Below, piece after piece: positions 5,811-13,442 of a stretch of DNA of 64,000 nucleotides. The stretch comes from Elainellaceae cyanobacterium (GTDB lineage Bacteria; Cyanobacteriota; Cyanobacteriia; CAKZMO01), in assembly GCA_049647405.1 (NCBI GenBank), contig JBARXP010000099.1, positions 669 to 64,668 on the forward strand. The letters are read 5' to 3'. A program made the position numbers and the translations under genes. Each line of letters opens with the position of its first letter. Position 1 is the stretch's first letter. Below the pieces are notes generated by a model. The model was not told where the DNA came from. It searched no databases and saw only the letters and a program-made list of their open reading frames with translations.

Positions 5811-6179
5811 TCAATCTTCGTCGAGAGGTAGCCCTGCTTTCACCCGCCCTTTGCCAAAATATCGGCCAAACTGAAGCTCATAGACTTCATCTTCATCTTG
5901 GGTCTCAACGGTCAAATCTGATTTGGCGTAGCTCACACACAGCAGGGCATAGCCCTCGGCTCTCAGATCTGGAGAAAGCCCCATTGCTTCAGGCTGGTCA
6001 ATTTCACCCGCTTTGACACGAACAGCGCAGGCTGTGCAGGCTCCATTGCGACAGGAAAACGGTAGCCGAATGCCCTGCTCTTCTGCCCAATGGAGGATGT
6101 AGCGATCGTTTGGAACTTCAATAGAGTGCAGCGTATCGGTTTGGCGATTATAGATTCTGACGGTGTGTGTCTGCTCCAT
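5811..6179 (-). CDS. plant-type [2Fe-2S] ferredoxin-like protein with C-terminal extension
   Basis: The cysteine pattern SCRNGACTACA...LLC is the 2Fe-2S plant-type ferredoxin cysteine pattern. 122 aa. Confidence 0.75.
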   Translation of the reverse strand: MEQTHTVRIYNRQTDTLHSIEVPNDRYILHWAEEQGIRLPFSCRNGACTACAVRVKAGEIDQPEAMGLSPDLRAEGYALLCVSYAKSDLTVETQDEDEVYELQFGRYFGKGRVKAGLPLDED

Positions 6180-6553
6180 AGCCTCGTACTGAATAACCTC
6201 TTAGGAATTGCTTCCAACAAAAAGTCTCCAAACATCTAGTTCACTAGAAATTCTAATGATGCTGTAGAGCATGAGAGACTCTTTTCATTCTGGACTGAAT
6301 TGCGAGAATCTACCAGCGAATCTTCGAGATGCCATGCCTCAAAGCTTTCTTCCTAGAAGGTGCAAGAGTGAAAAGCGATCGCCCTCAGCGCACCTTGACT
6401 CAACGCAAGCTGATCAATTTGCTACAAGGCTGGACTCATCTTCCGATGCGTTGCAGTGAGGATTTTTATACTTTCTTATGCCTTTGGAAAAAACGCCAGG
6501 AGTATCCTCTAGTCAGGAGCGAGTCTATTAAAGACTAAATCTTACATAGCTTC

Positions 6554-7444
6554 ATGAAAACTAAGCAATTTATCTTTTTAGGGCCGACTGGTGCCAGAGC
6601 ACAAGAGCATGCCGCTGCATTGGCGAAGCAATGGCACATTCCTTATGTGTCCACGCCAGAACTTTTGCAGCAGGCGATCGCCAAACAAACTGCCCTCGGA
6701 GTTGAAGCCAGTCCATATATAGAAGCGGGCGAGTTGGTGCCTGATACGATCGTGCTCAAATTGATGCGGCAGCGATTTGAGCAACCCGACACCGTGCTAA
6801 AAGGCTGGATTTTAGATGGGTTTCCCTGCACCGTAGCCCAAGCCCAGGGATTCGATGAGTGGTGGGCAATAATGGGGTCATCTACGCCAACGGTCGTTTA
6901 CTTCAAAGTGATGGCGGGCATTTTAATCAATCGTCTCTACACGGAGCTAGGCGAGACCGAGTCTCTATCGGCAATTCGTCGTCGGTTAGACCAGTACCAA
7001 GCTGAGATCGATCCTATTTTGGAGTATTATCAGCAGCGCGATCAGCTCAAAACGATCAACGCCAGCCTATCTTTTGCCGAAGTTGCCAGAGATTTGGCCT
7101 GCTTAGGTCAAGAAAATATCGGTTCAGCCCCGTTGATTCAAAATGAAGCCGAGCTTGATACTCTCATCGCTAGCCAATCAAGGCTGGTGGTTGATTGTAT
7201 GGCATCTTGGTGTGGGTCTTGCAAACAGGTGACACCGTCTATCGATAAGCTAGCGGAAGAATATGGCGATCGCGTCAAGGTGATGAAAATAGACTTTGAT
7301 GCCAATCGGCAACTATCGAAGCGGTTTGGCTTACAGGGCATACCCGCTGTCATGTTTTTTAAGGACGGTGAATTGTTAAAGACATTGACCGGAGTGAAGT
7401 CTTATCACGAGTATAATGCTGCAGTCATGACCCTGTTGAATTAG
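6554..7444 (+). CDS. adenylate-kinase-like domain (degenerate P-loop) fused to a thioredoxin domain (CGSC active site)
   Basis: The N-terminal 180 aa align with Adk (LGPTGA..., LDGFPCT, VPD motif region), but the P-loop lysine is missing (GPTGARAQ vs GAPGAGKGTQ) and LDGFPRT is changed to LDGFPCT. The C-terminal 100 aa form a thioredoxin fold (WCGSCK ... GIPAVMFFKDGE). Confidence 0.7.
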   Translation: MKTKQFIFLGPTGARAQEHAAALAKQWHIPYVSTPELLQQAIAKQTALGVEASPYIEAGELVPDTIVLKLMRQRFEQPDTVLKGWILDGFPCTVAQAQGFDEWWAIMGSSTPTVVYFKVMAGILINRLYTELGETESLSAIRRRLDQYQAEIDPILEYYQQRDQLKTINASLSFAEVARDLACLGQENIGSAPLIQNEAELDTLIASQSRLVVDCMASWCGSCKQVTPSIDKLAEEYGDRVKVMKIDFDANRQLSKRFGLQGIPAVMFFKDGELLKTLTGVKSYHEYNAAVMTLLN

Positions 7445-7632
7445 TCTGTTGAATTAGCCTGTTGAATTAGTCAGAGACTCACGAGGGAATATTGACGAGT
7501 CGATGAATTTCTATCGCCGCACTGGGAAATCCAAGGGTTAAATCCTTCCATTCCTAACAGTATTTTGACTTAAACAATCACCGTGAAGCCCTCTGCGACT
7601 GACCTACAAAAGGTTCAACAGGAAGAGATTCT

Positions 7633-9012
7633 CTAGGGTTGGAAATGGGTGCGGGCCAACCGTGCTGTCCCATAAGCAGCATCAGGCTGAGCCGACAAGC
7701 CGACTGGAACTCCAATATGTCGCTGGCGAATCTGAGTCCAGATTTGATTTTTTGCACCCCCTCCAGCTGTATAAACCTGAGCCAAGGGAGAGGCTCCTAA
7801 CTCCTGTAGCAGTCGATATCCATGAGCTTCGATACGGGCAATGCTTTCCAAAAGGCCATGTAAAAATGCCTCGTCGGTTTCAGGATAAGGACTAAGCCGG
7901 GGCAGCAAGTTGGGATCATTAATCGGGAAGCGATCGCCCGGTGTCAGCAACGGGTAGTAATCAAGAAGACTTGCCTCATTGGGATCAATCGCATGGCTCA
8001 ATCGTTCAATATCGGCATCGCTGAAAAACTGACGCAATACAGCCCCTCCCGTGTTTGACGCTCCACCCACCAACCACAGGGGGCGATCGCTCTTCGCAAA
8101 AGCATCGAGTCGATGGCTGTAGACTCCATAATGAGATGCATTCACAGGAGTTTCGCTGAGCAGCTTAAGCACCAATGTCGAGCCGAGAGACGTGACCGCC
8201 TCCCCTGGCTGAGACGCCCCACTAGCGAGAAACGCAGCAATGCTGTCGGTGGTTCCTGCACAAATCTGACAGTCTTGAGCCAGACCCAGGCGATCGGCGA
8301 TCGCTGGAGTCACGCAGGCAATGGGCGTTCCGGGGATCAAGACTTGCCGAGGCATCTGTAGTCGAGTCGGGAGTCCTTGCATCCACTGCGGATAGCTCAG
8401 CTGCTGTACGTCATAGCCCAGCTTGAGGCTATTGTGATAATCGCTGACGCTCATTCGACCATGCAGCAAAAAAGCCAGCCAATCCGATTGGTGGAGCAGA
8501 TAACCCGGAGCAATTCGTTCTGATGATTGTTCCAGAATTTTCAGTGCTTCAGTTCGCGCGGTCTGCGAATCTGCCGCCTCTAATAACTTCTGCTCTCCTT
8601 TTCGTGCTCCCTCCTCGCCACAGTGCCACCATACCCACTTGGCAAAGCTTGATGTCGCGCTTAAAGCGACATGTTCAGCCGGGGCGATCGCCCTTACCAA
8701 GGGCAACACTGCCTGTCCTCGATTATCGTTGTAAAGCAGAGGCGGTTTGAGGGGAGTCCCGGCTTCATCGCACCAGAGCACCGTGCCAGAGGTGCCGTTG
8801 ATGGCGATCGCCCGAATATCCCGGCGCGTCGATGCTGGAATTTGTATAATCACATCGTCCAGAGCGGAGCGCCATAGGGAAGGCCACTCTTGCGGCTGAG
8901 CTAGCGAAAAATCACATCGGCCTTCGGCTGCAATAGCTCCGTCTGCGTCAATGGCGACTGATCGCGCCCCCGATGTGCCAAAGTCAATGCCGAGAAAAAG
9001 GTGATGAGTCAT
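7633..9012 (-). CDS. FGGY-family carbohydrate kinase (xylulokinase/ribulokinase-like)
   Basis: The N-terminus reads MTHHLFLGIDFGTSGARS, matching the FGGY N-terminal ATPase motif. A C-terminal FGGY region is present (GGGAKN...W). I chose the internal ATG at 9010-9012 as the start over the longer ORF beginning at 9087. Confidence 0.7.
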   Translation of the reverse strand: MTHHLFLGIDFGTSGARSVAIDADGAIAAEGRCDFSLAQPQEWPSLWRSALDDVIIQIPASTRRDIRAIAINGTSGTVLWCDEAGTPLKPPLLYNDNRGQAVLPLVRAIAPAEHVALSATSSFAKWVWWHCGEEGARKGEQKLLEAADSQTARTEALKILEQSSERIAPGYLLHQSDWLAFLLHGRMSVSDYHNSLKLGYDVQQLSYPQWMQGLPTRLQMPRQVLIPGTPIACVTPAIADRLGLAQDCQICAGTTDSIAAFLASGASQPGEAVTSLGSTLVLKLLSETPVNASHYGVYSHRLDAFAKSDRPLWLVGGASNTGGAVLRQFFSDADIERLSHAIDPNEASLLDYYPLLTPGDRFPINDPNLLPRLSPYPETDEAFLHGLLESIARIEAHGYRLLQELGASPLAQVYTAGGGAKNQIWTQIRQRHIGVPVGLSAQPDAAYGTARLARTHFQP

Positions 9013-9260
9013 GCCAAACGATATAAAGCCCCATGATATTAAACAGAACCCATCGCCTCCGATGCAGTTTAAGAGCGATCGCCCCACTCGTCCTCTTTAT
9101 CGGCAGGTCTGGTGGAAAATGGCGGTGTTGGGGCTGTCAGGAGCCAGCCTATTTTTAATCATGACGCTGATAGCGACTCTTTTCTCGTCATAAGCTTCTT
9201 TGCCTGAGTCTGTGGCAATCATTTGAATCGCCATAGTCGTCAGTAAGCGGTGGGCGATCG

Positions 9261-9389: not shown

Positions 9390-12300
9390 CTAGGCGCTGT
9401 CGTCATCCTTGGAGTCTAGATTAAGGTCACTGATATCGCTCCCATCATCAAGGATTGAGGCATTGAGATTGTCACTTCCGTTAGGACGCTGACCATAGCC
9501 AGTAAAGCTCGATGAACCGCCGACCAACTCAGTGTCATCATCACTCACATGACGCTTAGCAATCTCAGATGGAGGGAAAACATCCATGCCCGCTTCCAGT
9601 TCGTACGTACGAGCAGTCTGATCGTCTAGCACAACGTCTTTGATATCGAAGTCACCTTCGATAACAGCATTGTCGAAGCCAGCATCAGAGCTATTTGGCG
9701 ACATCTCCTCATAGGCGTTGAACCCTGTACCAGCAGGAATCAAGCGACCAATGATAACGTTCTCTTTCAAGCCTCTCAACCAGTCAGACTTCCCTTCGAT
9801 AGCAGCTTCCGTTAAGACACGAGTCGTCTCCTGGAAACTTGCCGCCGAGATAAAGCTGTCTGTGTTTAGAGATGCTTTAGTGATTCCGAGCAGCACAGGA
9901 GTGTATTCAGCGGGCGCGCCTCCCGTAATCGACATGGCTTCATTACCTTGCTCAACCTGGTATAGCTCTACGAGTTCTCCAGGCAGCATGGTGGTGTCAC
10001 CTCCATCGTCAATGCGCACTTTCGAAGTCATTTGTCGCACAATCACTTCAATATGCTTGTCTGAAATATCAATTCCCTGAGACTGATATACAGACTGGAC
10101 TTCGTCTACTAAGAAGGTTTGAACCTCTCGCAGACTAATCAAAGCCGCTTCATTAAATCCCTTAGTTTCCCGATTCAGCAAGAAGAAGATTTCAAGAATT
10201 TCGTGGGGATTAGCGGGGCCATCGGTTAGAGCTTCTGCCGCTTGCACCGTTTGCCCATCAGATACGATGACGTTTTGGCCTAAGCCGATAGGATATTCGA
10301 TGACCGCTCCATCGTCTTCGACGACTTTGACTTCTACTGTCTCGTCATCGCTATAGACAACCTGTGCTGTTCCAGGACGAGCTGAAAGGATACAGGCTTC
10401 TTTGGGTTTCCGAGCTTCCAACAATTCTTCAATTCTCGGCAGACCCTGAATAATATCGCCTGTCTTTGCCCTCTCAAAAACGAGTAGTACCAGGTTGTCA
10501 CCCCGCTGCACCAGATCACCATCATCAATGTGTAGCACTGCACCCGAAGAAACTCGATAAGGACGAGCAATGCGAAGTTTTACGGTATCACCCGTAACCT
10601 CTACAACCTGCCCAGATTCTTCAAGGACAGCTCCAGGAACGACTTCAGAACCGGAAACTAGCAGATCTCCAACTTCAACAGCAGGGGTTTGACCTTGAGT
10701 ATCCACAGAAACCTGATCGACTTCACGCACAATCAGAACTCGGCGAATCGCTTCAATGCCTTCTAAAATGCCCTGAACTTCGCCAGCTTCTTTGCACTGA
10801 ATTTCTGTGCGAGCAACCACAGCGCCAGGAGAAATCTGATCGCCTTCTTTAACCAGAATTCGAGTTTGAGTGCTGCCTTGGGTCTGATCGGCAACAACAT
10901 CACGACGAATCACCAGCGTTTCCAGAATCACCATTTGGAGACGAAGAACTTCAGGGTCACTATCGTCTTCAACCAACTCAATATCAGCTGCTAAGTGCGG
11001 AGACTCTTCATCAATCTCTAAGATCAATTGAGTTCTCAATAACTCAAGTCCATTAGCCGACTTAACCCTCTCACCATCTTTATAGGGAACACGCTGGATG
11101 GCTCGAAGTCGGATTGCACGATTTTCTTCGTCGCTGACAGAGTCCTGACTCGGGACGGAAGGAGTATCAGGGACTGTGAACTCAGTGACCGGACGCAGGA
11201 GTAGAGCAGGGCCTTCCGGCGAATCGATATATTCTACGTATCGCAAGTCAGAAGCAACGATACCTTCCGTCACCTCTTCGCCAGCATTAACAATGCTGCC
11301 ATCCTTTGACATCACCTCTTCCGGATTATCAGCCATATGAAGCTCTCCGGGCTTGATCACGATTTCCCGCAAGATGTCATTTTTCTGGGTGACTTCGACA
11401 ACGCCACTGCTCTGGCAATAGATATCTTTAACAACCTCAGTGCCGGCTTCAACATACTGTCCATCTTCGACCAAGAGCAAAGACAAGTCTTTGTTGACTT
11501 CGTGGGCCTCTTCTGGAATCCAGAGAAGAGTGCCTCCTTTAGTAACTTCATAGCCTTGCTTAGCCTTGCCACGCTTTGCCACTTCTACGCCAGAATATTT
11601 GATAATTCCACCCGTTTGCGTGTGGTAGCGATCGTCTATCAGCTCAGCAACAACCTGATTATTGACGACTTTTGCACCTGGAGTAGCAATGAGCGAAAAG
11701 CGCTGACTATTTTGTGTTTCGATCAGGTATTGCTCACGCCCTTGAGCACTTTCAACAAGAACACTAGCTTGATTCAGCAAGACTGATGCGGTTACGATTT
11801 CGACCTCTCGACTACCTTTCCCTTCGGTGTCTTGAGGAATACGAACTAGGCCGCCATTCTCACTGATCAGCCGCGTTTCGGCTAAGATGCTGCCTTTTTC
11901 TACGCGATCGCCATTTTTGACGACGGGTTCAGCACCTGGCAAGAGGTTGTACACTTCCCCAGATAAAATCCAGATCAGTCCACCACGCTGTGCGCTGCGA
12001 GTCGTATTACCCTGGCGGTCAGTTTTTTCTTCTGCAACCAAATCTGCAAATCGAACGGCACCCGCTAAGTCAGTGGCGACATCCTTAGTAGCTCGCTCAG
12101 TGATCTTACGAGCACGGCTCATCGCCTGCATTTCAGAAAGAATCTGCCCAGACGTAACGGTAGCTCCATCACGAACAAATAAGATAGAACCCTGAGCGAC
12201 ATTAAACTGCTTTTTCTTTGAAGACGAAGAAGCCTCAACCGTTACTTGAATATTTCCCTCAGCAATCAGCGCATCTTCACCGTGGCGAGTTCGGAACGAA

Positions 12301-13442
12301 CGAACCCGGCCCTGGTTGCCTGCCGGAAACCGCACTGTTCCATCAAAAGGAGAGCGAAACTGTTGAGCAATCTCTCCAGTGAAAACTCCGCCCGTGTGGA
12401 ATGTCCGCATTGTGAGCTGCGTTCCGGGTTCTCCAATAGATTGAGCAGCAATAATACCGACTGCTTCACCCAGGTCAACAACGCTGGCATGAGCCAAGCT
12501 CCAGCCATAACATTTCTGACAAACACTTCGGTTTGCCTCGCACGTCAGGGGCGATCGCACAATAACTGCGCCCACACCAGAGTCTTGAATTGTTTCTGCA
12601 AGTTCTTCTGATATGTCTTGGTTACGAGCAGCAACGACCTCTTTAGTTTTAGGATGGATCGCATCCCTTGCAAGAACTCGACCCAGCAGACGGTCTTGCA
12701 AAGGAATCAAGACTTTTTCTCCATCCGTCATACTGCTCAGATGAATGCCCCGCTCAGTATTACAGTCAAACTCGCGGATAATAACATCTTGAGATACGTC
12801 AACCAAACGACGAGTCAAATATCCTGAGTCAGCGGTTCGCAGAGCTGTGTCAACCAGCCCCTTTCGCGCTCCATAAGATGAGATGATGTACTCAGTAACG
12901 GTTAAGCCTTCTCGGAAATTTGTCTTAATAGGGAGAGCGATAATCTTACCCTGAGGGTCGGCCATCAGCCCCCTCATTCCAACGAGCTGACGAACCTGAG
13001 AAATATTACCTCGCGCCCCTGAAAACGCCATCATGTAGACCGAATTCAGAGTACTCGTCGCTTCAAAGTTACGAATCACCTCATCCTTCAACTCTTCACT
13101 CGTGCTATTCCAAGTATCAATAACTTTCTGGAATCGCTCGACCTCTGTAATTTCGCCTCGTGTGTAGCGACTCTCAGTATCTCGAGTTAGCTCTTCAGCA
13201 GCATCAAGCAGCTGCCTCTTACTCGGCGGCACTTCTAAGTCATCGACACTGATAGAAACCCCTGCACGAGTAGCATATCGAAAGCCCATGTCTTTCAACA
13301 TATCTGCCATTTGTGCAGTGCGGGCTGTTCCATAATGAATGAACGCCCAAGCCACTAGTTTGCGAAGCTGCTTCTTATCCGTAACTCGATTACGAAAGAT
13401 AAAAGGCTGTTCAGTCTTCTGGTTTGCGAGTTGATCTGACAT
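9390..13442 (-). CDS. rpoC2: DNA-directed RNA polymerase subunit beta' (C-terminal part of split beta', cyanobacterial RpoC2)
   Basis: 1350 aa, homologous to the C-terminal two thirds of bacterial beta'. It lies downstream of rpoC1 on the same strand, which matches the cyanobacterial split rpoC1/rpoC2 arrangement. Confidence 0.95.

What the first reader, a model, noticed from the sequence alone, without database searches (positions are those of the whole stretch)
6554..7444. Adenylate-kinase-like pseudo-kinase domain fused to a thioredoxin with a non-canonical CGSC motif
The N-terminal domain aligns to Adk across the NMP-bind and LID-less core, but lacks the P-loop lysine (GPTGARAQ) and replaces the AMP-binding Arg in LDGFPRT with Cys. 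That suggests loss of phosphotransfer activity while nucleotide binding may be kept. It is fused to a thioredoxin domain whose active site is WCGSCK rather than WCGPCK.

The architecture suggests a nucleotide-sensing redox protein; I do not know of a characterised Adk-like::thioredoxin fusion of this kind.
Basis: seen in the sequence. Interest (0 to 1): 0.55.

Follow-up and report, generated by a model that had tools for sequence, protein, structure and literature searches.

The report
Dead adenylate kinase fused to thioredoxin
This cyanobacterial gene encodes a conserved, uncharacterised protein: an adenylate-kinase-shaped domain that has lost its catalytic residues, fused to a thioredoxin with an unusual CGSC active site. 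It is a drifted-off copy of the adenylate kinase and thioredoxin genes of a known redox and energy-sensing gene cluster.

Summary
Window 6554..7444 (+) is one intact 296-aa ORF with an ADK domain (Pfam 1.2e-31) and a thioredoxin domain (2.2e-22).

- **P-loop:** the Lys is absent in 72 of 72 species-level orthologues, so this is not a sequencing error.
- **Fusion:** it is a single ORF in more than 70 genomes, so it is not a missed frameshift.
- **CGSC:** it is a family trait (68/72).
- **Arg to Cys in LDGFPCT:** this is not a family trait. It occurs in 3/72 and is a single-base change that even the closest relative lacks.

New context:
- Both domains are closest to the adjacent adk and trx genes of the cyanobacterial CBS-CP12/TrxA cluster (Hackenberg 2018).
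- Fully canonical Adk::Trx fusions (GPPGAGKGTQ plus WCGPC) sit inside that cluster.
- The window's clade is monophyletic (97/100), lies outside the cluster, and can coexist with a canonical copy in the same genome.
- CGSC never occurs with an intact P-loop.
- The dead kinase domain is still under purifying selection (median dN/dS about 0.16; Trx 0.08).

Most likely it is an atypical redox-active thioredoxin carrying a non-catalytic Adk-fold docking or regulatory module. Canonical nucleotide binding is doubtful for this particular protein. It is an uncharacterised family, annotated in public records as a "nucleoside monophosphate kinase" although the catalytic residues are missing. Interest is moderate.

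The parts
6554..7444 (+). CDS of the 296-aa pseudo-Adk::thioredoxin fusion protein (stop codon included)
   Evidence: ORF list and sequence. It is 100% identical to P0001, an NCBI MAG protein from an Elainellaceae cyanobacterium named 'nucleoside monophosphate kinase'.
6566..7099 (+). Adenylate-kinase-fold domain (residues 5-182), short-LID type, predicted catalytically inactive
   Evidence: Pfam PF00406 at 1.2e-31. It scores below every NCBIfam adk cut-off. The AF2 model has Adk-fold matches with TM-score 0.76-0.82 normalised to the target. Median dN/dS is 0.16.
6581..6610 (+). Degenerate P-loop GPTGARAQEH (canonical form GPPGAGKGTQ)
   Evidence: Direct reading of the sequence. Column counts show the Lys position has no Lys in 120 top hits or in 72 genome orthologues.
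6827..6829 (+). Cys92 codon (TGC) at the position of the AMP-binding Arg of LDGFPRT
   Evidence: Direct reading of the sequence. Arg is kept in 56/72 orthologues and Cys occurs in 3/72. The nearest relative, P0002, has Arg. TGC is one transition away from CGC.
7100..7141 (+). Inter-domain linker (residues 183-196)
   Evidence: Residues 187-190 have pLDDT below 50 in the AF2 model and pTM is 0.63, so the relative orientation of the domains is not fixed.
7142..7423 (+). Thioredoxin domain (residues 197-290)
   Evidence: Pfam PF00085 at 2.2e-22. It is the most conserved part of the family, with dN/dS 0.08. It shares 53-58% identity with the stand-alone WCGPC thioredoxins that are most similar, including the cluster trx of L081.
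7196..7198 (+). Extra conserved Cys215, five residues before the active site (VVDC-MAS-WCGSC)
   Evidence: Present in 71/72 orthologues. It is also present in canonical fusions and in the closest stand-alone thioredoxins, so it was inherited rather than newly acquired.
7208..7225 (+). Active-site motif WCGSCK
   Evidence: Direct reading of the sequence. Across 72 orthologues the middle residue is Ser in 68, Pro in 3 and Ala in 1, and both Cys are present in all 72.

Best explanation
The gene encodes a member of a clade of thin filamentous, Leptolyngbya-like cyanobacterial proteins. In this clade an adenylate-kinase-fold domain has become a pseudo-enzyme and is fused to a still redox-active but atypical (CGSC) thioredoxin.

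**Shown**
- Both domains derive from the adjacent adk and trx genes of the CBS-CP12/TrxA regulatory gene cluster.
- A canonical Adk::Trx fusion exists inside that cluster.
- The window's clade is a separate monophyletic lineage that has left the cluster and lost the P-loop Lys and most phosphate-binding residues.
- Most members have changed CGPC to CGSC.
- Both domains remain under purifying selection.

**Inferred**
- The thioredoxin domain is the working end. It carries out thiol-disulfide exchange with an active site expected to be less reducing than CGPC, as in the plant WC(G/A)SC ACHT proteins. Those proteins drain electrons from target enzymes towards peroxiredoxin.
- The dead Adk domain no longer transfers phosphate. 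It serves as a docking or regulatory module that gives the thioredoxin its partner specificity.
- In family members that keep the R36, R88 and Q92 equivalents, it may still bind AMP.
- In this particular protein both AMP-site arginines are gone, so a protein-binding or scaffolding role is more likely than nucleotide sensing.
For: **Domains and fold:**

**Loss of catalytic residues is family-wide**
- There is no Lys at the P-loop position in 120 top hits or in 72 genome orthologues.
- The R123 equivalent is Glu in 49/72, and the D158/D159 equivalents are lost.
- All NCBIfam adk equivalog cut-offs are missed, for example 160 against 262 bits.

**The thioredoxin machinery is intact**
- Both Cys and the cis-Pro are present in 72/72; Trp, the buried Asp and the Lys after CxxC are invariant or nearly so.

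**Classification of 233 retrieved relatives**
- Degenerate P-loop with CGSC: 119.
- Degenerate P-loop with CGPC: 20.
- Degenerate P-loop with CGAC: 2.
- Canonical fusion with CGPC: 36.
- Canonical P-loop with CGSC: 0.

**Phylogeny:** the degenerate clade is monophyletic in 97/100 NJ bootstraps, and many CGPC members lie among the deepest branches.

**Ancestry**
- Separate canonical adk and trx genes (L078, L080, L081) and the canonical fusion P0276 (L083/L084) lie in the cluster CBS4 / recombinase-like / adk / trx / orf85 / CBS-CP12.
- That cluster is described in PMC6142219.
- The query's Adk domain is 44-48% identical, and its Trx domain 50-58% identical, to the cluster-type and most similar stand-alone proteins. 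The figures are 39% against M. tuberculosis Adk and 35% against E. coli TrxA.

**Paralogy:** assembly GCA_039028535.1 holds both the canonical fusion (contig JBCCHX010000065) and a degenerate fusion (L077, contig JBCCHX010000010).

**Purifying selection:** median dN/dS is 0.16 for the Adk-like domain and 0.08 for Trx over 219 pairs.

**ACHT parallel:** ACHT carries WC(G/A)SC and acts as an oxidation factor (PMC12661521; PMC8713810).
Against: - No biochemical data exist for any member.
- The redox potential, the reductant and the targets are unknown.
- The effect of Pro to Ser on potential is inferred from other thioredoxins, not measured here.
- No conserved gene neighbour points to a partner.
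- The AF2 model does not fix the relative position of the domains (pTM 0.63, linker pLDDT below 50), so no inter-domain mechanism can be read from it.
- About 60% of orthologues carry Lys or Arg one residue after the lost P-loop Lys (43/72). Residual nucleotide binding in those members cannot be excluded.
- The NJ tree does not resolve whether the degenerate clade arose from the canonical fusion or from an independent fusion (fusions as a whole are monophyletic in only 13/100).
Confidence: 0.55

Rival explanations
1. The Adk-like domain is a nucleotide (AMP/ADP) sensor that gates the thioredoxin domain. The protein would then couple energy charge to thiol redox signalling.
For: - Its ancestors sit in a cluster built around AMP sensing. 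CBS-CP12 inhibits TrxA-dependent activation of PRK in an AMP-dependent way (PMC6142219).
- Most family members keep the equivalents of R88 (56/72), Q92 (72/72), R119 (70/72) and R167 (56/72). About half keep the R36 equivalent (39/72).
- The domain is under purifying selection.
Against: - In the window's protein the R36 equivalent is Gln and the R88 equivalent is Cys.
- The P-loop is changed at six of its ten positions, including the Lys (Ala) and Thr (Glu) equivalents.
- The AMP-site residues vary across the family, which is not what an essential ligand site would show.
- Two orthologues (P0075, P0115) carry deletions within the NMP-binding region.
Confidence: 0.2
2. The protein is still an active adenylate or NMP kinase with an unorthodox P-loop, redox-regulated by its own thioredoxin domain. 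This is what the public annotation 'nucleoside monophosphate kinase' implies.
For: - The Adk fold is predicted with high confidence.
- The R119 and R167 equivalents are kept.
- 43/72 members have Lys or Arg one residue after the canonical Lys position.
- Canonical Adk::Trx fusions, which probably are active kinases, exist as relatives.
Against: - The Walker A Lys and Thr are missing in every member.
- The LID arginines and the Asp-Asp pair are lost.
- The shifted Lys/Arg is not conserved and is Gln in this protein.
- Scores fall below all curated adk cut-offs.
- Genomes carrying the protein also carry canonical Adk copies. That fits release from catalytic constraint.
Confidence: 0.05
3. The feature is an artefact or a decaying remnant. 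The degenerate motifs would come from sequencing or assembly errors, or from a missed frameshift joining two genes. Alternatively the Adk part would be a neutral relic on its way to loss.
For: - The source is a metagenome-assembled genome.
- The single Arg to Cys change is one transition and could be an error or a polymorphism.
- L043 carries an interrupted copy.
Against: - The same architecture and the same degenerate P-loop occur in 72 species-level genomes and in more than 140 protein clusters.
- dN/dS of 0.16 on the Adk-like domain shows selection.
- Length and secondary structure are preserved.
Confidence: 0.03

Closest known systems
Adenylate kinase and thioredoxin A genes of the cyanobacterial CBS-CP12/TrxA gene cluster (Hackenberg et al. 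2018, PMC6142219)
   Same: - Both domains of the window protein are most similar to these proteins: 44-48% identity for the Adk part and 50-58% for the Trx part.
- The gene order adk then trx matches the domain order.
- The extra Cys before the active site is shared.
- Canonical one-ORF fusions occur inside the cluster.
   Different: - The window gene is not in such a cluster. No CBS4, orf85 or CBS-CP12 lies within 6 kb in any of the 77 degenerate-fusion loci, and none is found anywhere in the 64-kb window.
- The kinase residues are lost.
- The active site is CGSC instead of CGPC.
Plant plastid ACHT (atypical Cys His-rich thioredoxins, WC(G/A)SC)
   Same: - The active-site motif WCGSC is the same.
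- ACHTs act as oxidation factors that pass electrons from target enzymes to 2-Cys peroxiredoxin. That is a plausible functional analogy.
   Different: - ACHTs are single-domain eukaryotic proteins. They are reported absent from cyanobacteria and derived from Trx-h (PMC12661521).
- The Trx domain here derives from a cyanobacterial CGPC thioredoxin, so the motif is convergent.
- ACHTs have no Adk-like domain.
Cyanobacterial TrxC (WCG[L/V/I]C; Lopez-Maury et al. 2018, PMC6262485)
   Same: It is a cyanobacteria-specific thioredoxin in which the active-site Pro is replaced. It lacks classical insulin-reduction and FBPase-activation activity. This is a precedent for an atypical function after loss of the Pro.
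   Different: - The motif differs (Leu, Val or Ile rather than Ser).
- TrxC is a stand-alone protein.
- TrxC is reported to show a clear divergence from other cyanobacterial thioredoxins, whereas the domain here is a close relative of ordinary WCGPC ones.
NTRC and other enzyme::thioredoxin fusions; Chlamydomonas ADK3 with a CP12-like tail
   Same: - A thioredoxin or redox-sensitive module is fused to a nucleotide-handling enzyme domain.
- ADK3 links an adenylate kinase to thiol-dependent complex formation with GAPDH (PMC9406205).
   Different: In those proteins the enzyme domain is catalytically active. Here it is a pseudo-enzyme.

Membership tests
Adenylate kinase (EC 2.7.4.3; Pfam PF00406, NCBIfam TIGR01351/NF002700) | Adk/NMP-kinase fold and sequence homology | tested here: met
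   PF00406 at E 1.2e-31, above the gathering score. M. tuberculosis Adk at 1.4e-28 over residues 6-185. Foldseek TM-score 0.76-0.82 normalised to the target.
Adenylate kinase (EC 2.7.4.3; Pfam PF00406, NCBIfam TIGR01351/NF002700) | Score above the curated equivalog or subfamily cut-offs | tested here: not met
   NF002700 scores 160.2 against 262. TIGR01351 scores 121.2 against 168. All other listed adk models are also below their cut-offs.
Adenylate kinase (EC 2.7.4.3; Pfam PF00406, NCBIfam TIGR01351/NF002700) | Walker A P-loop GxPGxGKGT with the catalytic Lys | tested here: not met
   The sequence is GPTGARAQE. The Lys position is Ala here, and none of 72 orthologues has Lys there.
Adenylate kinase (EC 2.7.4.3; Pfam PF00406, NCBIfam TIGR01351/NF002700) | AMP-site arginines (E. 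coli R36 and R88) | tested here: not met
   They are Gln39 and Cys92 in this protein. Across the family Arg is kept in 39/72 and 56/72 respectively.
Adenylate kinase (EC 2.7.4.3; Pfam PF00406, NCBIfam TIGR01351/NF002700) | LID and catalytic residues (E. coli R123, D158, D159; GRGRxDD in short Adks) | tested here: not met
   The sequence reads YTELGETES where canonical relatives have GRGRQDD. Canonical relatives have Arg at 0.99 and Asp-Asp at 0.98-0.99 at these positions.
Adenylate kinase (EC 2.7.4.3; Pfam PF00406, NCBIfam TIGR01351/NF002700) | Phosphotransfer activity ATP + AMP = 2 ADP | not testable with these tools
   This needs an enzyme assay.
Thioredoxin (Pfam PF00085, TIGR01068) | Thioredoxin fold with two active-site Cys, cis-Pro, buried Asp and Trp before the CxxC | tested here: met
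   PF00085 at 2.2e-22. C220, C223 and P264 are present in 72/72; W219 and D214 are invariant in the 22-sequence alignment.
Thioredoxin (Pfam PF00085, TIGR01068) | Canonical WCGPC motif and equivalog score | tested here: not met
   The motif is WCGSC. TIGR01068 scores 84.3 against a cut-off of 96.8.
Thioredoxin (Pfam PF00085, TIGR01068) | Disulfide reductase activity and reduction by FTR or NTR | not testable with these tools
   This needs insulin or DTNB assays and reductase coupling.
ACHT (plant atypical thioredoxins) | WC(G/A)SC active site | tested here: met
   WCGSC is present. The motif definition comes from PMC12661521.
ACHT (plant atypical thioredoxins) | Membership of the eukaryotic plastid Trx-h-derived clade | tested here: not met
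   The nearest relatives are cyanobacterial WCGPC thioredoxins and Adk::Trx fusions (50-58% identity). ACHT is reported absent from cyanobacteria. No direct tree with ACHT sequences was built.
ACHT (plant atypical thioredoxins) | Less negative midpoint potential and efficient electron transfer to 2-Cys peroxiredoxin | not testable with these tools
   This needs redox titration and peroxiredoxin assays.
Cyanobacterial TrxC | WCG[L/V/I]C active site | tested here: not met
   The residue is Ser in 68/72, Pro in 3 and Ala in 1. It is never Leu, Val or Ile. The definition comes from PMC6262485.
CBS-CP12/TrxA(/Adk) gene cluster | Location next to a CBS-CP12 gene, with a four-CBS-domain gene upstream | tested here: not met
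   tblastn with the CBS4, orf85 and CBS-CP12 proteins of L081 hits only L078, L080, L081, L083 and L084. It hits neither the window nor any of L001-L077, apart from one weak CBS-domain match (29% identity over 95 residues) about 5 kb downstream in L053.
CBS-CP12/TrxA(/Adk) gene cluster | Descent of both domains from the cluster's adk and trx | tested here: inconclusive
   The best identities are to the cluster-type and most similar stand-alone proteins, and the domain order matches the gene order. The NJ tree does not resolve the branching between the degenerate clade, the canonical fusions and the stand-alone cluster Adks.

The most novel reading that the evidence does not exclude
This clade would be the cyanobacterial counterpart of the plant "oxidation-factor" thioredoxins (ACHT, TrxL2), which have been reported missing from cyanobacteria.

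It would be a high-potential CGSC thioredoxin that switches target enzymes off by draining their electrons towards peroxiredoxin. Its specificity or gating would come from a pseudo-adenylate-kinase domain recruited from an AMP-sensing regulatory cluster.

It would also be a clear bacterial example of an NMP-kinase fold converted into a non-catalytic regulatory module.
Probability: 0.2. Interest if true: 0.7.

Novelty: new variant of a known kind. Interest (0 to 1): 0.5.

Why it matters
- **Oxidative side of thiol regulation.** How cyanobacteria switch thiol-regulated enzymes back off is poorly understood. The plant solution (ACHT, TrxL2) is reported absent from cyanobacteria. A conserved cyanobacterial thioredoxin with the ACHT-type CGSC site is a concrete, testable candidate.
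- **Evolutionary series.** The family runs from adjacent adk and trx genes, to an active fusion, to a dead-kinase fusion, to the CGSC form. This makes it a tidy system for studying how a pseudo-enzyme domain is kept for a new role.
- **Annotation.** More than 140 database entries named "nucleoside monophosphate kinase" or "adenylate kinase" are probably misnamed and should not be counted as adenylate kinases in metabolic reconstructions.

Tried and rejected
- **Synteny with the window.** None of the window's neighbours is conserved next to the gene in 80 related loci. The neighbours are IMPase, 2Fe-2S ferredoxin, FGGY kinase and rpoC2. The only exception is one ferredoxin hit in L078.
- **Shared neighbours among loci.** All-against-all clustering of neighbours found only sub-clade synteny in about 15 loci, including a biotin carboxylase-like ORF and small membrane-like ORFs that I did not identify. 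There is no family-wide partner.
- **Promoter and terminator scan of 6100-7700.** Results were no better than shuffled sequence.
- **Literature searches.** I searched WCGSC, adenylate kinase with thioredoxin fusion, and the two domain names together. No description of this architecture turned up.
- **TrxC membership.** Rejected on the motif.
- **Foldseek against PDB.** Every top hit covers only the Adk part, so no solved two-domain analogue exists.
- **AF2 inter-domain geometry.** It is not interpretable (pTM 0.63, low-confidence linker).
- **Tree topology.** The NJ tree could not resolve whether the degenerate clade descends from the canonical fusion.
- **Second Adk or Trx in the window.** None was found. 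Whether this genome also has a canonical copy cannot be checked from 64 kb.
Full report
**1. The observation**

Window 6554..7444 (+) is a single ATG-initiated ORF of 296 codons with no internal stop. Pfam finds an adenylate kinase domain on residues 9-163 (E 1.2e-31) and a thioredoxin domain on residues 197-284 (E 2.2e-22). The best solved relative is the short-LID adenylate kinase of M. tuberculosis, which aligns over residues 6-185 (E 1.4e-28).

- GPTGARAQEH stands where canonical enzymes have GPPGAGKGTQ.
- STPELLQ stands where they have STGELFR.
- LDGFPCT stands where they have LDGFPRT.
- YTELGETES stands where short adenylate kinases have GRGRxDD.
- The thioredoxin active site reads WCGSCK.

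An AlphaFold2 model is confident for both domains (mean pLDDT 87). Its linker is poorly defined (residues 187-190 below 50; pTM 0.63). Foldseek against the PDB returns only adenylate kinases, and these cover only the first 185-226 alignment columns. No solved protein has this two-domain architecture.

**2. It is neither an error nor a missed frameshift**

The protein database holds the identical protein (P0001, an Elainellaceae MAG) and more than a hundred full-length orthologues at 57-82% identity. All are cyanobacterial. Most named entries are called "nucleoside monophosphate kinase"; others are "adenylate kinase", "thioredoxin" or "AAA family ATPase".

A scan of one genome per species returned 77 loci that carry the same fusion. 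They come mainly from thin filamentous genera: Leptolyngbya, Nodosilinea, Halomicronema, Leptothoe, Tildeniella, Thainema, Phormidesmidales and Elainellaceae.

In 72 full-length genome copies:
- The P-loop Lys position is never Lys (V58, G5, L4, A3, I2).
- The Thr that follows the P-loop is mostly Ala or Glu.
- The R123 equivalent is Glu in 49.
- Q92 (72), the R119 equivalent (70) and the R167 equivalent (56) are largely kept.
- CGSC is present in 68, CGPC in 3 and CGAC in 1.
- Both cysteines and the cis-proline are invariant.

One correction is needed. The Arg to Cys change in LDGFPCT occurs in only 3 of 72 orthologues. It is a single transition away from CGC. It is absent from the closest relative, P0002, which is 82% identical and has LDGFPRT. 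It is a feature of this lineage, or possibly a MAG polymorphism, and not of the family.

**3. Where the protein comes from**

An exhaustive HMMER search over 1.84 billion cluster representatives found only two full-length representatives. One of them, P0122, is a fusion with fully canonical motifs: GPPGVGKGTQ, STGDILR, LDGFPRT, GRQDD and WCGPC. A search started from P0122 found a clade of such canonical fusions, plus stand-alone canonical adenylate kinases of 185-193 aa.

Classification of 233 retrieved sequences:

| Architecture | Count |
|---|---|
| Fused, degenerate P-loop, CGSC | 119 |
| Fused, degenerate P-loop, CGPC | 20 |
| Fused, degenerate P-loop, CGAC | 2 |
| Fused, canonical P-loop, CGPC | 36 |
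| Stand-alone, canonical | 55 |
| Stand-alone, degenerate | 1 |
| Canonical P-loop with CGSC | 0 |

In a neighbour-joining tree of the kinase domain, the degenerate fusions form one clade (97/100 bootstraps) on a long stem. Many CGPC members lie among its deepest branches, although some are nested higher up. The order of branching among the degenerate clade, the canonical fusions and the stand-alone enzymes is not resolved.

**4. Genomic context of the relatives**

Three loci (L078, L080 from Geminocystis, and L081) have a canonical adk followed directly by a separate WCGPC trx. These genes sit in a conserved cluster:
- a four-CBS-domain protein,
- a small recombinase-like ORF,
- adk,
- trx,
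- a small Cys-rich ORF (orf85),
- one or two CBS-CP12 genes.

The canonical fusion P0276 lies in the same cluster (L083/L084). This is the CBS-CP12/TrxA cluster described by Hackenberg et al. 2018. They noted that some versions also encode ferredoxin and adenylate kinase. They also showed that CBS-CP12 counteracts TrxA-dependent activation of phosphoribulokinase in an AMP-dependent manner (PMC6142219).

The window protein's kinase part is 44-48% identical to the cluster-type kinases, against 39% to M. tuberculosis Adk. Its thioredoxin part is 50-58% identical to the cluster-type and most similar stand-alone thioredoxins, against 35% to E. coli TrxA.

None of the 77 degenerate-fusion loci has a CBS4, orf85 or CBS-CP12 gene within 6 kb, apart from one weak CBS-domain match in L053. 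The window has none anywhere in its 64 kb. No other neighbour is conserved family-wide.

Degenerate and canonical copies can coexist:
- Assembly GCA_039028535.1 carries the canonical fusion on contig JBCCHX010000065 and a degenerate fusion on JBCCHX010000010 (L077).
- MAG P01_C01_bin.147 has a degenerate fusion (P0014) and the stand-alone adk-trx-CBS-CP12 cluster (L081).
- By record name, P01_D01_bin.115 and Leptolyngbya sp. SIO1D8 also hold both a degenerate fusion and a canonical Adk.

The window's gene is thus a paralogue that left the cluster and was released from the need to be a kinase.

**5. The dead domain is still maintained**

I computed Nei-Gojobori dN/dS over 219 orthologue pairs with dS between 0.05 and 1.2. 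The median is 0.16 for the kinase-like domain and 0.08 for the thioredoxin domain. The domain is about twice as relaxed as the thioredoxin, but it is clearly under purifying selection. Its length and predicted secondary structure are preserved. Some positions are more conserved in the degenerate clade than in canonical relatives, for example Gln77, Leu82 and Gly108. This argues against a decaying relic and for a retained, non-catalytic role.

**6. Most likely mechanism (inferred)**

The thioredoxin domain keeps everything needed for thiol-disulfide exchange, so it is probably the working end.

Replacing the active-site proline is known to alter thioredoxin properties:
- The plant ACHT proteins carry WC(G/A)SC. 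They act as high-potential oxidation factors that pass electrons from target enzymes to 2-Cys peroxiredoxin.
- Cyanobacterial TrxC (WCGLC) lacks the classical reductase activities.

By analogy, the CGSC domain here is expected to be less reducing than its CGPC paralogue. CGSC is found only together with a dead kinase domain, which suggests that the two changes belong to one functional shift.

The kinase-like domain most plausibly provides docking or regulation. Nucleotide sensing is attractive given the AMP-centred ancestry, and it is possible for family members that keep R36, R88 and Q92. The window protein has lost both arginines and nearly the whole P-loop, so canonical nucleotide binding is doubtful for it. 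None of this is shown experimentally.

**7. Comparison with known systems, and novelty**

The protein fails the defining tests for an adenylate kinase. It lacks the Walker A Lys, the AMP arginines and the LID residues, and it scores below every curated cut-off. It has the thioredoxin fold and cysteines but not the canonical motif or the equivalog score.

It shares the ACHT motif by convergence, not by descent. It is not TrxC. It is homologous to the adk and trx of the CBS-CP12/TrxA cluster but does not reside in that cluster.

I found no publication describing an Adk::Trx fusion or its pseudo-kinase derivative. The paper library covers only part of the literature. I rate it a new variant of a known kind: an atypical thioredoxin with a pseudo-enzyme partner domain.

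**8. Verdict**

| Item | Verdict |
|---|---|
| Observation | Confirmed |
| Interest | 0.5 |

A specialist in cyanobacterial redox regulation would find the family worth testing, particularly as a candidate for the missing oxidising branch. The components are familiar, however, and the function remains inferred.

Noticed in passing
window 7433-7472: A 13-nt unit, CTGTTGAATTAGT, is repeated 3.1 times in tandem (92% matches). The repeat starts in the last three sense codons and includes the stop codon of the fusion gene, so the stop codon TAG is present three times, 13 nt apart.
   Followed up: partly
window 5811-6179 (-): A plant-type 2Fe-2S ferredoxin gene (Pfam Fer2, 3e-18) is divergently oriented, 374 bp upstream of the fusion gene. 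Hackenberg 2018 notes that some CBS-CP12/TrxA clusters also encode ferredoxin. The pairing is not conserved in the related loci: only L078 has a similar ferredoxin.
   Followed up: partly
L078, L080, L081, L083 and stand-alone or canonical Adk relatives (alignment position 164 of the window protein): Canonical cluster-type adenylate kinases, both stand-alone and fused, have a conserved Cys (92%) in the motif YQ(R/K)RxC-L. In the degenerate clade it is Gln (79%). This could be a redox-regulatory site for the neighbouring thioredoxin.
   Followed up: no
L081 3836-4093; L083 4942-5124; L078 7306-7482; L080 7034-7261: A small Cys-rich ORF of about 85 aa, with CxxC-type pairs and no Pfam hit, is conserved directly downstream of trx or of the canonical fusion in the CBS-CP12 cluster.
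   Followed up: no
L043 1375-2281: One orthologue, from a Halomicronema MAG, is split into two ORFs at about residue 120 inside the kinase-like domain. This is either a pseudogene or an assembly error.
   Followed up: no
P0157 (206 aa, protein): This is a stand-alone Adk-like protein with a degenerate P-loop (GPPGADIGRQ). It keeps the AMP arginines and GRQDD, and it groups with the canonical stand-alone kinases. It may represent an independent, earlier stage of P-loop loss.
   Followed up: no
window 7633-9087 (-) and 9390-13442 (-): Downstream on the opposite strand lie an FGGY-family carbohydrate kinase, whose ORF as listed starts at GTG, and rpoC2. The split beta-prime C-terminal gene (rpoC2) is consistent with a cyanobacterial origin.
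   Followed up: partly
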